NCBI RefSeq assembly: GCF_009914755.1
Contig: NC_060932.1
Length of the DNA: 64,000 nucleotides
Direction: 5' to 3' (one strand)
DNA from: the human T2T-CHM13v2.0 reference genome, Homo sapiens
Positions 6,071 to 15,308 of the stretch are shown one piece after another. A model generated the notes under the pieces. The model did not search any database and was not told where the DNA came from. It was given only the letters and a program-made list of their open reading frames with translations. How positions within the stretch are numbered: the first letter of the stretch is position 1; every line of letters starts with the position of its first letter. A program made the translations under genes and the position numbers.

Positions 6071-6675
6071 CTATATCTCCTCCTCCACCTTCAAGATCAT
6101 CCCTGAGAAGACCTCGAGCCCCGAGTGGGTGCCCTTGGGGCTGTCCTGGGAGCCTCCAGCAGGCCCCTGGGCCACTCCACTGGCAGGACTACCGTCCTGG
6201 AGTGAGGGTGAGGCTTCCCGGGTAGGGCGTGCTTCCACCAGCCTCTCGAGGGTCCGGTTGAGGGCCTCCACGCCATCGGCCAGACGCTGGCTCTGCTCGG
6301 CCAGCCGCTGCAGCAGCAGGTTTTGCTGGGCCATGAGTGTGCTCTGCTGCTGGGCCCAGGAGGACAGCAGGGCGCCCTGCTGCCGGTGGGAGTCCAGCAG
6401 CTGCTGCTCAAATGCGGACGTTTCAGATGCTGCCGCTGGGGTCCTCCTGGAGGGCAAGGGAGGTGCTGGCGCCGAAGAGGGCGGGGAAGGCTGGAAGGCC
6501 CCCATGAGTGTGGTTGCTGGTGGGGTGGAGGCTGGGGAAGCAGGTGGGGAGGGTGAGGAGGTGGGTGCGTGGAAGACTCCTCGTAAGTCCAGGGGGTCAG
6601 GTTCAGGCAGGCTGGGCCCTTCCAGGGACCTCAGGGGCAGCCACAAGCAGCTGGGGGTCTCGTCCTCCTCATCAG
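6071..6675 (-). CDS. Putative terminal coding exon (acidic start, Pro/Ser-rich linker, Q/L-rich coiled coil, C-terminal LKVEEEI*), in frame with the Myb exon
   Basis: ORF 6071..6826(-). Strong acceptor cattttcctgtctccctctgttag|CT GAT GAG at 6675 (phase 1, joining the Myb exon as ...EPLP-T-DEEDETPSCLW...). Heptad-like FEQQLLDSHRQQGALLSSWAQQQSTLMAQQNLLLQRLAEQSQRLADGVEALNRTLERLVE; TAG at 6071-6073. Confidence 0.8.
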
Positions 6676-6999
6676 CTAACAGAGGGAGACAGGAAAATGT
6701 CAGCCTGCACACCCAAAACCCAGTGATCTGGAGGGTGAGCAGGGTGCAGGGAGAGTGCCCATGTGAGGCCTCTGCACCTGGAGCTGTATGGGTCTCACGA
6801 TGCTCCGTCTGCAGTGGGAGTTGCACCCGTTTGAGAGATGAGGAAACAGACCCAGAGAGGTGGGCACATTTACTCTAGTAGTGCTGGGACTGAAGCCACA
6901 GCCTGTCCAAATGCAAAGCCTGCGTGCCCACTCATCACAGCACCACTTGTATTCATCCTCCCACCGACTCCCCTGTGCTCCATCCGCTCGTCCGCCTGC

Positions 7000-7630
7000 C
7001 CTCTGGTCTACCCGCCATCCTGCTACCCAAGTGTCTATTCCTCCACATAGACACGCCCACCACATCCACTCATCTGTCCACCTGTCTGTTCATCACTGTC
7101 CAGCCAACCCCTTCCAACCTCCTCTTCCTTCTATTCATCCATCCATCCGTCTACTCACCCATTTATCCATGCTGTCTGTCCATCCACCCAGCCACTCACC
7201 CATCTACTCCTTCCTCCTTCCATCTACCCATCCACCTGCCCGTCTACACCTTCCTCCTTCCACCTAGCCACCCGCCCATCTACACCTTCCTCCATCTACC
7301 CATCCACCCGCCCGTCTACACCTTCCTCTTTCCATCCACCCACCCGTCTACACCTTCCTCCTTCCATCCATCCACCCGCCCATCTACACCTTCCTCCTTC
7401 CATCCACCTATCCACCCGCCTGTCTACACCTTCCTCCTTCCATCCACCCATCCAACTGCCCGTCTACACCTTCCTTCTTCCATCCATCCACCACCCGTCT
7501 ACAGCTTCCTCCTTCCATCTACCCACCTGTCTACACCTTCCTTCCATCCACCCACCCGTCTACACCTTCCTCCTTCCATCCACCCACCCATCTACACCTT
7601 CCTCCTTCCATCCATCCACCCGCCCATCTA
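7000..7630 (+). repeat. Pyrimidine-rich (CCAT)/ctacaccttcctccttccatccacc tandem repeat
   Basis: Repeated tctacaccttcctccttccatc units interspersed with CCAT/CCAC. Confidence 0.9.
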
Positions 7631-12800: not shown

Positions 12801-14843
12801 AACCTGAGTTCCTGCAGCCTCCAGGGCTGAGGACTTGCAGAAAAGGACTAAGCACCTGGGCCACACCAGTGCCACCCCTGCCAGGCCCCTCCTTCTCAGC
12901 CCCACACCACATGTCTATCCTTGCCATGAAGCACCCCCAAACCAGGTCTGCCTCTGCCCATAGGACCCTTGGCTGCAAGAATCTGCCCTTCAGGAGACAA
13001 TGTGGCCTCAATGGGGGTGGATCCAGCCATCCCTGGCCTGCACAGGCCTGAGCGGACCCAGATCCTCCTCCAGCCCCACCCCATCAGGAGGCCCACTGAC
13101 CAGGCCCATCCCCCAAGCCCCACCACAAGGCCTAGTGCCCAGGCCCATCGCCCAAGGCCCACAGCCCAGGCCCCTTGTCCAAGCCCAGCCACAGGGTTGG
13201 CTGGGTCTACATGCGTCTCCCAACCAGTCCGGCCCACTCTGCCCATGGGTCCCAGCCTCATGCACCGCTGTGAGCAGGAGCAGCTGAGGATGCCCCAGCG
13301 CTCCAAGTTCTGCCATGGCTGCCACTGGGGGCGTTTGAGGCCAGCCCCTGCCTGTCCTGTGAGGCTGGGTCCTTCTGTCCACTCTGTGGCCCTCAAGGAG
13401 CTGGTCCTGCTTCCGGGGCTTCGTTCCCAAAGTCCTTCCAGCAGCTCCCAGGAAGGGGAGGGTCCAGCGGGGCTCTGCTTCGAAGGGTGTGCCACCATAT
13501 GCGGAGGACGGCGAAGGAGCTCCTGGCACGGTGTCTTGAGGAGGAGAGGAGGTGCGGTGGGAGGAGGCACGGAGGCGGCAGGAGGAAGCACGGAGCCAGC
13601 ATCACCCTCAGAGCCAGCGTCACCCTTGGAGCCAGTGGCAGCTGCGGGCTGCAGACGAGGCCTGACCAGACAGAAACGCCTGGCTTCCGGTGGTCCCTGG
13701 AGTGGGCCCGTGGGCTCGGAAGGGGGCACAGCGTGCCTGACAGGCTGAGAGTCACCGGACAGCACCACGTGTGGGGCTTCCAAGTGGGCCCAGAGGGAGG
13801 GGCCTGCAGAAGGAGGGGGAGGCCACTGCAGGCCAGAGTGAGGCACAGCGTGGGGCGGGGAAGAGTCAAGCTGGGGCCCAGGCTCCTCCCTGGCTCTGCC
13901 CAAACTCCTCAACGTGACCAATGAATGGACAGGTCACCTGCTGCTCCCTGGGAGCTATGTCAAGGGCCAGCTGGCTGGAGGTGCATATGGGCTGAGGCTC
14001 CTCCCACCTGCTGGCTGGCCTTGCCTTCTCATGGTAGCTGTACGCTGGGGCTCTGGGGCTGGGGGAGAGCGGAGGGAAGCCCTCCTTCTTCCCAGACACC
14101 CCTGTCTTCAGACCCTGGGGCCAGCTGGGCCCTGCTGCCCTGCATGGGAAAGTAGGGACTTCTCCCTGCTGGGACCCACTGGTTTGGAAGACCTGGCTGC
14201 CTAAGGACAGCCGTGCTCACCGCTGGACTGCATCTGGAAGGGGAGGGCTGCCCGTGGAGAGGAAGGCCAGGCCGGGACCCGGGGCCAAACAGGCCTCCGG
14301 CCACACGACACCAGGCGGGAACGGCAGAGGCCAAGATGGGGGCCTTGGAGGGCACCAGGGCACCCTGGGCTGCACCCGCTGCTGCTGCACGTCGGGGAGC
14401 TCAGGCCTTGTCTCTGCCCCTCACCAGGCACTGGTCCCAGAGGCCACCTTGTGACCGCCTCCCCACGGTAGCGCTCACCTCTCTACAGTGACTAGGACCC
14501 AGCATCCCATCTGGACACCCGGTGGGCACGGCTTGAGGTGGCGTATATGGTCGAGCCCCTTGATGGCACAATGCTTGGCAATGCAGGGAGGACCCTGAGC
14601 TGGAACCGCAGCCCTTCCACTACCGAGACAGGCAGAACCCTCCCTGGCCCCGACCCTTGGTTTCCCCACCTAAAAGAAGAGATGGGCCAGGAGGGTGGCG
14701 GGCCATCTCCATGGGCCTCTGGGTCTCCCTCGGAGGGTCTCCCTCTTGGGAGCTGGTGCAGAAGGCTCAAGCCCACTCGCCGGCCCTGCTTGCCCCAGGG
14801 CAGTGTGGTCCGGGGGGGCGGGCTGTGGGGAAGGCCCACTTAC

Positions 14844-15308
14844 TTGGCAGGGGCTCCGTGGTCTGGCCCTCGCCTTGGGGACCGTGGGCGGAAAAGGTCT
14901 CTGCCACCATGCGCTCCACAGGTGTGAGGAGGAGGCCGGGGGCGGGGCCGCCCTCCGCCAGCTTCTTGCGCACAGCACCTCGCAGGTCCCGCCACTTGTG
15001 CTTGAGGTCCCCCAGGTCGCGGCGGCAGTAGCCCAGCGCGTTCACTGCCTGCAGGATGCGGCTCCACACGCGGTGCTTTCGGGCAGGTGTGCCCCGCAGC
15101 GCCCCGAACAGCAGCGGGTAGTGGCGCCGCACCCTCTGCACCAGCACCTCCGTCTCCTGGGGGCTGAAGTTGGGCTTGCGTGTCTTGGTGCGGGAGTGGG
15201 GGCCCGGCCGCAGGGGTGTGGAGCCCGGCCCGGCACCCAGCAGCAGGGCTGCCGCGGCCGGCTCGGGGCTGCAGCTCTGCTGGCAGATGGCTTTGCTGCT
15301 GCTGGACC
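14844..15308 (-). CDS. Intact Myb/SANT-like (MSANTD/NAIF1/Harbinger-type) DNA-binding-domain exon in the TSNARE1 intron; symmetric phase-1 exon
   Basis: ORF 14767..15375(-) contains [26 protein letters not shown]...[40 protein letters not shown], a hallmark Myb_DNA-bind_5-type pattern. Acceptor tggtgcctttccag|GG at 15308, consensus donor CCAA|gtaagt at 14844. 465 nt = 155 codons with no stops; CpG-rich. Confidence 0.88.

What the first reader, a model, noticed from the sequence alone, without database searches (positions are those of the whole stretch)
6071..15308. Hidden Myb/SANT + coiled-coil coding module interleaved with the TSNARE1 SNARE exons
Seen: a stop-free 465-nt exon (15308-14844) with a strong acceptor and consensus GTAAGT donor encodes a complete Myb/SANT-like domain. 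Its phase-1 donor joins exactly in frame to a strong acceptor at 6675 (...TTEPLP-T-DEEDETPS...), giving 200 more residues ending LKVEEEI*, followed by a UTR and poly(A) signals. The SNARE exon 9847-9765 sits between the two exons. Known: Myb/SANT domain + low-complexity linker + C-terminal coiled coil is the architecture of Harbinger-transposon-derived DNA-binding proteins (NAIF1/MSANTD family). Inference: a functional NAIF1-like nuclear protein module is encoded inside TSNARE1, as an alternative 3' end or a nested gene. It is absent from the canonical TSNARE1 protein as I recall it; minor annotated isoforms may include part of it.
Basis: partly seen in the sequence, partly recalled or inferred. 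Interest (0 to 1): 0.92.

Follow-up and report, generated by a model that had tools for sequence, protein, structure and literature searches.

The report
Annotated second Myb tail of TSNARE1
The two exons are real and encode a second Myb DNA-binding domain plus a conserved helical tail of TSNARE1, but this alternative end is already in RefSeq predicted isoforms and is the ancient tetrapod C-terminus of the gene rather than a hidden gene.

Summary
Exon 15308-14844 (-) is open, has AG/GTAAGT splice sites and carries a Myb_DNA-bind_5 domain (Pfam E 1.6e-20). Its phase-1 donor joins acceptor 6675 in frame and gives 200 more residues ending KVEEEI*.

It is not hidden. Human RefSeq predicted isoforms X1, X2, X5, X6 and X11 contain this sequence (XP_011515216.1 is X1), and the hub table lists both exons.

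The 200-aa tail is conserved in placentals, marsupials (60-63% identity), turtles and amphibians (46-51%). That is about as well as the canonical syntaxin part.

In amphibians and turtles the tail follows a complete SNARE domain and a different Myb exon ("Myb3"). I could not find Myb3 in the human window.

The tail exon is also "exon 13" of the main brain isoforms tSNARE1b/c, where another frame is read and stops after 14 codons. It is therefore a dual-frame exon.

AlphaFold2 predicts one confident 61-residue helix flanked by disorder. Profile comparison gave no support for homology of the tail to NAIF1's tail.

Expression, translation and function in humans could not be tested here. Verdict: a real, conserved alternative 3' coding end that is annotated but uncharacterised. 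Interest is moderate to low.

The parts
14844..15308 (-). Alternative 'Myb2' exon. It is 465 nt and enters and leaves in phase 1, so it is a symmetric exon of 155 codons.
   Evidence: Sequence and splice sites; translation P0001; listed among exons of other transcripts in the hub table; present in human XP isoforms.
14956..15180 (-). Myb_DNA-bind_5 (PF13873) domain, residues 43-117 of the exon translation.
   Evidence: Pfam E 1.6e-20, 73.2 bits against a cutoff of 21.7, profile positions 1-77 of 78.
6074..6675 (-). Coding part of the terminal exon in the long (phase-1) frame: 2 bases that complete Thr, then 200 codons DEEDETPS...KVEEEI.
   Evidence: Conserved from amphibians to human.
6071..6073 (-). 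TAG stop codon of the long frame.
6631..6675 (-). The same exon read in phase 0 from exon 12: LMRRTRPPAACGCP followed by TGA. This is the non-TM tail of tSNARE1b/c ('exon 13').
   Evidence: Translation. The 3' part of the published reverse primer TSN1-CT3 matches 6631-6658 (-) exactly, 1 match against 0 expected.
6632..6673 (-). Conserved acidic run plus P.C.W.PL motif, tail residues 1-14.
   Evidence: D1, P7, C9, W11, P13 and L14 are invariant in 7 of 7 tetrapod sequences.
6233..6415 (-). Long amphipathic helix, tail residues 87-147.
   Evidence: AlphaFold2 helix 87-147 with block pLDDT 94-98, found again in the larger model. Heptad-like core: 8 of the last 10 a/d positions are invariant L/V/M.
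6074..6109 (-). Invariant C-terminal motif FSGMILKVEEE followed by I/M/V/L.
   Evidence: F189-E199 invariant in 7 of 7 sequences. 172 stored proteins carry FSGMIL[KE].
4441..6070 (-). 3' UTR shared with the main isoforms. AATAAA hexamers at 4491-4486, 4481-4476 and 4477-4472.
   Evidence: exon end 4441 from the hub table.
19538..19610 (-). SNARE exon 11, whose phase-1 donor feeds the Myb2 exon. It encodes [24 protein letters not shown].
9765..9847 (-). SNARE exon 12, skipped in the long isoforms. It enters in phase 1 and ends in phase 0.
   Evidence: Absent from P0009, P0003, P0004 and P0006.

Best explanation
This is a conserved, protein-coding alternative 3' end of TSNARE1. It is not a separate gene.

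Splicing. Transcripts from the TSNARE1 promoter splice SNARE exon 11 (donor 19538, phase 1) to the symmetric Myb2 exon (15308-14844). They skip SNARE exon 12 and join acceptor 6675. Terminal 'exon 13' is then read one base out of register with the main brain isoforms. That gives 200 residues instead of 14, with the same 3' UTR and poly(A) site.

Product. The protein has, in order: the optional N-terminal Myb1, the syntaxin Habc region, only the N-terminal part of the Qa-SNARE core, a second Myb/SANT (Myb_DNA-bind_5) domain, a disordered linker with conserved short motifs, a 61-residue amphipathic helix, and an invariant FSGMILKVEEEI end.

History. The tail is the ancestral tetrapod C-terminus. 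In amphibians and turtles it follows a complete SNARE domain and a different Myb exon (Myb3). Mammals appear to have lost Myb3. As a result, exon 12 spliced to exon 13 falls out of frame and yields the short non-TM tail of tSNARE1b/c. The long frame stays reachable only from phase-1 donors (exon 11 or Myb2).

Inferred, not shown. Lacking the exon-12 half of the SNARE core, the long isoform should not complete a four-helix SNARE bundle. It would instead act through Myb-mediated DNA or protein binding and helix-mediated partner binding or oligomerisation, probably partly in the nucleus.
For: Anatomy and frames.

Domain: Pfam PF13873 at E 1.6e-20. Full human X1 shows two PF13873 stretches plus Syntaxin_2 and no PF05739 SNARE hit at E <= 0.001. 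Frog P0129 and turtle P0185 do show PF05739.

Annotation: human predicted isoforms X1/X2/X5/X6/X11 match the tail at 100% identity and coverage. The junctions were read in 4 of the 4 I fetched.

Conservation:
- 147 proteins at E <= 0.001 with the human tail, of which 120 are listed: primates, other placentals, one marsupial.
- An exhaustive phmmer search found 23 clusters.
- The frog tail finds 187 proteins, of which 120 are listed: frogs, caecilians, salamanders, turtles, marsupials, placentals.
- 63 invariant columns in the 7-species alignment.
- Human versus 7 mammals: Myb2 exon 74-90% and tail exon 60-80% identity, against 63-81% for the Habc-to-exon-11 part.
- Gaps in the alignments keep the frame from amphibians to human.

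Exon order: read from turtle models, where P0185 holds exon 11, Myb2, exon 12, Myb3 and the tail in one chain.

Identity of exon 13: primer match. The paper's section 7 puts exon 13 in about 93-97% of cortical transcripts.

Helix.
Against: No expression or translation evidence for the Myb2-containing isoforms was available here.
- The human proteins are Gnomon predictions (XP_), not curated NP_ records as far as I could see.
- Plooster et al. amplified brain cDNA with a reverse primer inside this very exon and report only four isoforms, none with Myb2 (sections 7 and 17 read). The long isoform is therefore at best minor in adult brain.
- A full-text search for two tail or Myb peptides, the accession and the C-terminal motif found 0 papers.

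Conservation was judged from predicted proteins of other species. Those gene models partly depend on homology. No codon-level dN/dS could be computed because no orthologous DNA was available.

No birds, squamates, crocodilians, monotremes or fishes appear among the listed hits. The lists are truncated, so the age of the tail is not fixed.

The Myb region folded with low confidence, pLDDT 43-59.
Confidence: 0.75

Rival explanations
1. Evolutionary relic in humans. The exons are still open and are spliced at noise level, or the transcripts are degraded. The module matters in amphibians and turtles and perhaps some mammals, but makes no functional protein in human tissues.
For: Only predicted (XP_) human models were found. 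The brain cDNA survey with a primer in this exon reported no such isoform. 0 papers matched the peptide and accession search. Plooster et al. themselves suggest the Myb-like domain may be a relic (discussion passage).
Against: Human, ape and monkey tails are 90-100% identical with intact frames. Human versus marsupial is 60-63% over 201 residues with the frame kept, similar to the canonical part of the protein. A relic that became neutral in the primate lineage is not excluded, but no human-specific damage is seen.
Confidence: 0.15
2. A nested, independently transcribed NAIF1-like gene (Myb exon plus tail exon) with its own promoter inside TSNARE1.
For: Stand-alone models of 325-334 aa that start at a Met in the Myb exon exist in turtle and frog records (P0127, P0181, P0158, P0162, P0166). 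The size and layout resemble NAIF1 (327 aa).
Against: The human Myb2 exon has no in-frame ATG before the domain, and the open frame upstream of the acceptor has none either. The 58-nt exon 16931-16874 has no ATG. All 4 human isoforms I read start in the TSNARE1 N-terminus. The short non-mammalian models may be partial gene models.
Confidence: 0.05
3. The conservation of 6074-6675 reflects non-coding function (3' UTR elements of the major isoforms) rather than protein coding.
For: In the dominant transcripts this stretch is 3' UTR, lying after the TGA at 6633-6631.
Against: Conservation is seen at the amino-acid level down to amphibians (46-51% identity). Insertions and deletions keep the frame, the helix has a heptad pattern, and the C-terminus is invariant right up to the stop. 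In amphibians and turtles this frame is the main coding frame after Myb3.
Confidence: 0.03

Closest known systems
TSNARE1 of amphibians and turtles (e.g. Ascaphus truei isoform X3, P0129, 590 aa; Mauremys mutica X2, P0176, 598 aa)
   Same: The same C-terminal tail (46-51% identity to human, 63 invariant columns, identical FSGMILKVEEE end), preceded by a Myb_DNA-bind_5 domain and encoded after the syntaxin part.
   Different: There the SNARE domain is complete (PF05739 hit). The Myb exon is another one, Myb3, only 30-34% identical to Myb1/Myb2 and 56% identical to a human chr11 paralogue. The amphibian proteins I read lack Myb1 and Myb2. Turtles have Myb2 as well.
tSNARE1b / tSNARE1c, the main human brain isoforms (Plooster et al. 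2021 preprint, 10.1101/2021.02.09.430442; abstract, passages and sections 7, 8, 17 read)
   Same: Same promoter, same exons up to exon 11, and the same terminal exon 4441-6675 with its poly(A) site.
   Different: They include exon 12, so the SNARE core is complete. They read the terminal exon in phase 0 for 14 codons (LMRRTRPPAACGCP*). The long isoforms skip exon 12, insert Myb2 and read 200 codons in the other frame.
NAIF1 (Harbinger Myb-like-derived gene)
   Same: N-terminal Myb_DNA-bind_5 domain opening with a basic K/R-rich stretch and NFS. An LTP motif follows the domain, then a low-complexity linker, an intron after the linker, and a conserved Q-rich C-terminal region. The Myb2 core is 36-44% identical to NAIF1.
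   Different: NAIF1 is a stand-alone gene. Its tail shows no detectable homology to the TSNARE1 tail: hhalign probability 1.3%, and no paralogue of the tail in the human genome. The Atlas feature score to the NAIF1 cluster was 0.80, below the level that counts, and the helix plus tail alone gave no named hit.
Dual-frame exons such as CDKN2A exon 2 (INK4a/ARF) and GNAS XLalphas/ALEX (recalled, not checked here)
   Same: One stretch of DNA is translated in two frames depending on the upstream exon.
   Different: The overlap here is only 14 codons. The second frame appears to be a by-product of losing an upstream exon rather than a long overlapping ORF.

Membership tests
Pfam Myb_DNA-bind_5 (PF13873) | Score above the curated gathering cutoff over most of the model. 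| tested here: met
   73.2 bits against 21.7, E 1.6e-20, model positions 1-77 of 78. Two stretches in the full human X1.
Harbinger Myb-like-derived genes (NAIF1 / MSANTD group) | The Myb domain's nearest relatives are Harbinger Myb-like proteins or their domesticated descendants. | tested here: inconclusive
   The nearest human paralogues after TSNARE1's own Myb1 (65%) are the NAIF1 locus (47%, E 2.7e-10) and loci on chr19 and chr11. NAIF1 identity was confirmed by named hits. No transposon-borne Myb-like ORF was fetched, so the link to Harbinger rests on the literature. Tree support for the deep nodes is weak, 78/89.
Harbinger Myb-like-derived genes (NAIF1 / MSANTD group) | Tail homologous to the tail of NAIF1 or of a transposon Myb-like protein. 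| tested here: not met
   hhalign of A1 (tail) against A2 (14 NAIF1 sequences): probability 1.3%. phmmer over 1.84 billion representatives gave 23 hits at E <= 0.001; the 15 that I read or that carried a source name were TSNARE1-type sequences or fragments of them, and 8 short unnamed hits were not read.
Harbinger Myb-like-derived genes (NAIF1 / MSANTD group) | Binds DNA and a transposase-type partner (HARBI1) and promotes its nuclear import. | not testable with these tools
   Known for NAIF1 only from passages in PMC9392472 that cite Sinzelle 2008. The original paper is not held.
Qa-SNARE (syntaxin) proteins | Complete SNARE core able to form a four-helix bundle. | tested here: not met
   The long human isoform lacks exon 12, which carries 71 of the 159 nt that Plooster et al. 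give as the core. There is no PF05739 hit in P0009, whereas the frog and turtle proteins have one. This holds for the long isoform only, not for the gene.
Qa-SNARE (syntaxin) proteins | N-terminal syntaxin (Habc) region. | tested here: met
   PF14523 Syntaxin_2, E 8.9e-29, in P0009.
Coiled-coil oligomerisation module | Long helix with a heptad hydrophobic core that self-associates. | tested here: inconclusive
   Helix 87-147 at pLDDT above 90. The heptad core is clear in the C-terminal half, but the register shifts in the N-terminal half. Self-association is not established.

The most novel reading that the evidence does not exclude
The ancestral and still constrained product of TSNARE1 is a soluble syntaxin fused to a Myb DNA-binding domain and a partner-binding helix/tail module. 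The short non-TM tail that defines about 93-97% of human cortical transcripts is a frame-shifted reading of that ancient coding exon, created when mammals lost the Myb3 exon. If the long isoform is expressed at some stage or in some tissue, this schizophrenia-risk gene would have a second, chromatin- or nucleus-directed arm. That arm could work through the invariant acidic P.C.W.PL motif, the helix and the FSGMILKVEEEI end, possibly with a HARBI1-like partner. Functional studies so far have not addressed it.
Probability: 0.2. Interest if true: 0.6.

Novelty: already known. Interest (0 to 1): 0.33.

Why it matters
TSNARE1 is a high-confidence schizophrenia risk gene. In the two papers I could read passages of, its function has been studied only through four brain isoforms that all keep the SNARE domain. 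There the Myb-like domain is discussed as a possible relic.

The results here show three things. A second Myb domain and a 200-residue tail are about as conserved as the syntaxin part. The tail dates back at least to the amphibian-amniote ancestor. It shares its exon, in another frame, with the dominant isoforms. This gives a concrete, cheap set of tests: junction reads, peptides, and localisation of the long isoform.

It also has a practical consequence. Variants in 6074-6675 that are scored as 3' UTR for the main transcripts are coding for the long ones.

As a discovery it is modest. The sequence is already in RefSeq models, and the kind of thing (a domesticated Harbinger Myb-like module with alternative splicing) is known.

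Tried and rejected
1. Self-association of the helix. Complex prediction with two copies of tail residues 80-152 returned 'no answer' (score 0.09 against a mark of 0.32, after queue refusals). This is neither for nor against binding.

2. Tail against solved structures. hmmsearch of A1 against PDB sequences gave nothing below E 0.24.

3. Tail against Pfam. Nothing reached a cutoff; the best was E 0.058.

4. Tail against NAIF1. hhalign probability 1.3%. Atlas: NAIF1 cluster 0.80 for the whole tail, and no named hit for residues 80-200. Homology rejected as unsupported.

5. Profile search of the human genome with A1. Not possible: the tool takes no alignment for this genome. The single-sequence search found only the tail itself.

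6. Whole-module fold (A3, 356 aa). Mean pLDDT 53.4, pTM 0.25, no confident contacts between domains. No fold search was run on it or on the single helix, because the matches would be meaningless.

7. Remnant of the Myb3 exon in the human intron 6675-9765. tblastn with turtle and frog proteins at E <= 10 found none; the Myb3 part hits only the Myb2 exon at about 30% identity.

8. Start codon for a nested gene. None in the Myb2 exon ahead of the domain, and none in exon 16931-16874.

9. Literature.
- Sinzelle 2008 and Smith 2012 are not held. Smith 2012 first linked TSNARE1 to Harbinger and may already describe more than one Myb copy; I could not check.
- Searches found no description of the second Myb domain or the tail. 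Only passages and named sections were read, and no supplements.

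Full report
**Observation**

On the minus strand, 15308-14844 is a 465-nt stretch preceded by a pyrimidine-rich tract and AG and followed by GTAAGT. In the frame set by the upstream exon it has no stop and reads [10 protein letters not shown]...TTEPLP.

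Exon 11 of the selected transcript (19610-19538) ends with one spare G. The 19538>15308 join is therefore in frame.

The Myb exon enters and leaves in phase 1 (465 nt = 155 codons). Its last base, A, plus CT at acceptor 6675 (...ctctgttAG|CT) gives Thr. Then follow 200 codons, DEEDETPS...KVEEEI, and TAG at 6073-6071.

SNARE exon 12 (9847-9765) lies between the two exons. Three AATAAA hexamers at 4491-4472 precede the annotated end at 4441.

Open frames by themselves are not significant in this DNA. GC is 57-68%. There are 75 stop-free stretches of 90 aa or more across 4400-15400, one of them 354 aa long on the opposite strand of the same exon. The case rests on domain scores and on conservation.

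**What the exons encode**

The first exon holds a complete Myb_DNA-bind_5 domain: PF13873, E 1.6e-20, 73.2 bits against a cutoff of 21.7, model positions 1-77 of 78.

The 200-residue tail matches no Pfam family at its cutoff. It matches no PDB sequence below E 0.24. It has no second copy in the human genome: 1 match, itself, of 107 candidates scored at E <= 0.01.

AlphaFold2 was run on a 7-species alignment. It predicts one helix, residues 87-147, with block pLDDT 94-98; the rest is disordered. A 356-residue model of Myb2 plus tail gave the same helix but low confidence elsewhere and no contacts between domains (mean pLDDT 53.4).

The helix has a heptad-like core. 8 of its last 10 a/d positions are invariant L, V or M, and the register shifts in the N-terminal half.

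**It is not hidden**

The tail was searched against the 5.8-billion-protein collection, longer proteins only. That returned 147 proteins at E <= 0.001, of which 120 are listed.

Seven of the listed entries are human, at 100% identity and coverage. They are named t-SNARE domain-containing protein 1 isoforms X1 (XP_011515216.1, 838 aa), X2, X5, X6 and X11.

I fetched 4 of the 7. The hub table also lists 14844-15308 and 4441-6675 among exons of other transcripts.

These are predicted models. I saw no curated record and no expression evidence.

**Conservation**

- The listed hits cover primates (90-98% identity), other placentals (59-78%) and a marsupial (62%).
- An exhaustive phmmer run over 1.84 billion cluster representatives gave 23 hits at E <= 0.001. 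The 15 that I read or that carried a source name were TSNARE1-type sequences or fragments of them; 8 short unnamed hits were not read.
- One hit was a frog protein and one was a turtle protein. Re-searching with the frog tail gave 187 proteins, of which 120 are listed: frogs, caecilians, salamanders, turtles, marsupials and placentals.
- No bird, squamate, crocodilian, monotreme or fish appears in the listed rows. The lists are truncated, so absence there is not shown.
- A 7-species alignment of the tail has 63 invariant columns in four blocks: an acidic run with P.C.W.PL, SSPSPP.SP, the helix, and FSGMILKVEEE followed by I/M/V/L. The gaps keep the frame.
- Human was compared with seven mammals. 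The Myb2 exon is 74-90% identical and the tail exon 60-80%. The Habc-to-exon-11 part is 63-81% and the Myb1 exon 71-91%.

The module is therefore about as constrained as the canonical protein.

**History read from other tetrapods**

Turtle models give the exon order. One Gopherus model (P0185, 780 aa) chains exon 11, Myb2, exon 12, a different Myb exon (Myb3, RKRKEKFSP...) and the tail.

The amphibian proteins I read have a complete SNARE domain, Myb3 and the tail. They have no Myb1 and no Myb2 (P0129, P0174, P0193). Pfam finds PF05739 in the frog and turtle proteins but not in human X1.

Of 172 stored proteins with the FSGMIL[KE] motif, regex classes give:
- 96 with Myb1 and Myb2
- 24 with Myb2 only
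- 31 with exon 12 and Myb3
- 3 with Myb3 only
- 5 with Myb1 only
- 3 with Myb1, Myb2 and exon 12
- 1 with Myb1 and exon 12
- 1 with Myb2, exon 12 and Myb3
- 8 with none of these

tblastn of turtle and frog proteins against the window finds no Myb3 remnant between 6675 and 9765 at E <= 10. The Myb3 part hits only the Myb2 exon, at about 30% identity.

Identities among the Myb exons:
- Myb2 is 67-72% identical to Myb1.
- Myb2 is 30-37% identical to Myb3.
- Myb2 is 36-44% identical to NAIF1.
- Myb3 is 56% identical to a human chr11 paralogue and 44% to a chr19 one.

A maximum-likelihood tree of 22 domain segments groups Myb1 with Myb2 (support 88/95). It places Myb3 with the chr11/chr19 paralogues, but only weakly (78/89). 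Myb2 is therefore not a recent copy of Myb3, and Myb1 looks like a later duplicate of Myb2.

The names MYPOP, PRDM11 and MSANTD4 for the chr19 and chr11 loci are my recollection from their positions. NAIF1 on chr9 is confirmed by named database hits at 97-99% identity.

**The dual-frame exon**

Exon 12 ends in phase 0. Joined to 6675 it reads LMRRTRPPAACGCP and stops at TGA 6633-6631.

The reverse primer that Plooster et al. used for the non-TM isoforms (TSN1-CT3; section 17) matches 6631-6658 exactly: 1 match against 0 expected. So 4441-6675 is their exon 13.

Exon 13 ends tSNARE1b and tSNARE1c and accounts for about 93-97% of cortical transcripts (section 7).

The short tail of the dominant human isoforms is thus an out-of-frame reading of the first 14 codons of an ancient coding exon. 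In frogs and turtles, Myb3 sits between exon 12 and this exon and restores the long frame.

In mammals the long frame is reached only from phase-1 donors:
- Exon 11 through Myb2, as in the human predictions.
- Exon 11 directly, as in panda, camel and Gracilinanus models.
- Possibly the annotated alternative donor at 9761, which makes exon 12 87 nt long and phase 1. This last route is my inference and is not verified.

**Mechanism**

Shown:
- The splice geometry and the frames.
- The domain content.
- The conservation.
- The loss of exon 12 in the long isoforms. By the coordinates in Plooster et al., exon 12 carries 71 of the 159 nt of the SNARE core.

Inferred:
- A protein that keeps the Habc region and only the first part of the SNARE core cannot complete a four-helix bundle.
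- Its two Myb domains and the helix/tail module would then act in DNA or protein binding, probably with a nuclear fraction. Plooster et al. saw the Myb1-containing tSNARE1c partly in the nucleus (section 8).
- Homology of the tail to NAIF1's tail is not supported: hhalign probability 1.3%, Atlas 0.80 for the whole tail and no named hit for the helix plus tail. 'NAIF1-like' therefore describes the layout, not shared descent of the tail.
- A nested gene is unlikely in humans because there is no start codon.

**Against my reading**

- The brain cDNA survey used a primer inside this exon and reported four isoforms, none with Myb2. The long form is at best minor in adult brain.
- The human proteins are predictions.
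- Conservation was measured on predicted proteins, not on codon alignments.
- The self-association job gave no verdict.

**Literature**

- Six full-text searches found two papers that mention TSNARE1 together with a Myb-like domain.
- One is the Plooster preprint, of which I read the abstract, passages and sections 7, 8 and 17. The other is Etchegaray et al. 2022, of which I read passages only.
- In what I read, neither describes a second Myb domain or this tail.
- Smith et al. 2012 and Sinzelle et al. 2008 are not held and may bear on this. No supplements were seen.

**Verdict**

This is a real, conserved alternative coding end of TSNARE1. It is already present in RefSeq predicted models and is a known kind of thing. 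The useful additions are its antiquity, the dual-frame use of exon 13, and the apparent loss of Myb3 in mammals. Interest is moderate to low.

Noticed in passing
window 7179-8010: Two tandem arrays lie in the intron between exon 12 and exon 13: 7179-7630 (period 36-40, about 9-12 copies) and 7633-8010 (period 82, 4.6 copies). This is the interval where turtles and amphibians carry the Myb3 exon.
   Followed up: partly
window 9759-9765: The annotated alternative exon 9761-9847 uses a GT donor 4 nt past the canonical one. At 87 nt it ends in phase 1, so it could join 6675 in the long frame. That would give a complete SNARE domain plus the 200-aa tail without Myb2. I could not verify that any transcript does this.
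   Followed up: partly
window 16874-16931 (-): This annotated 58-nt alternative exon has no ATG. Read from exon 11's phase it reaches TGA after 15 codons. It looks like a poison exon or an alternative short end.
   Followed up: partly
window 9854-13661 (-): Several long annotated exons start at 13661 and end at 9854-9877, a few bases before the exon 12 acceptor. No GT follows these ends. They look like 3' ends or retained-intron fragments rather than spliced exons. In the phase-1 frame, 13661 onward is open only to 13393.
   Followed up: no
P0091, P0097, P0206 (panda, Camelus ferus, Gracilinanus models): These models join exon 11 directly to the tail exon (..SEQGDAI-A/D-DEEDEA), skipping both Myb2 and exon 12 and still using the long frame.
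   Followed up: partly
L002 (chr8:143483619-143487041), window-equivalent about 79119-79541: The N-terminal Myb1 exon ends at the position equivalent to the end of the Myb2 exon (..[27 protein letters not shown] against ..[27 protein letters not shown]). The duplication therefore seems to have copied the exon together with its donor position.
   Followed up: partly
L005 (chr11:45364901-45368239): A human chr11 paralogue is 56% identical to the turtle Myb3 domain, closer than Myb1 or Myb2 are (30-34%). I recall the locus as PRDM11; this was not checked.
   Followed up: partly
window 5814-6878 (+): A 354-aa stop-free stretch lies on the opposite strand across the tail exon. It shows how little ORF length means in this GC-rich region, and nothing suggests it is coding.
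   Followed up: no
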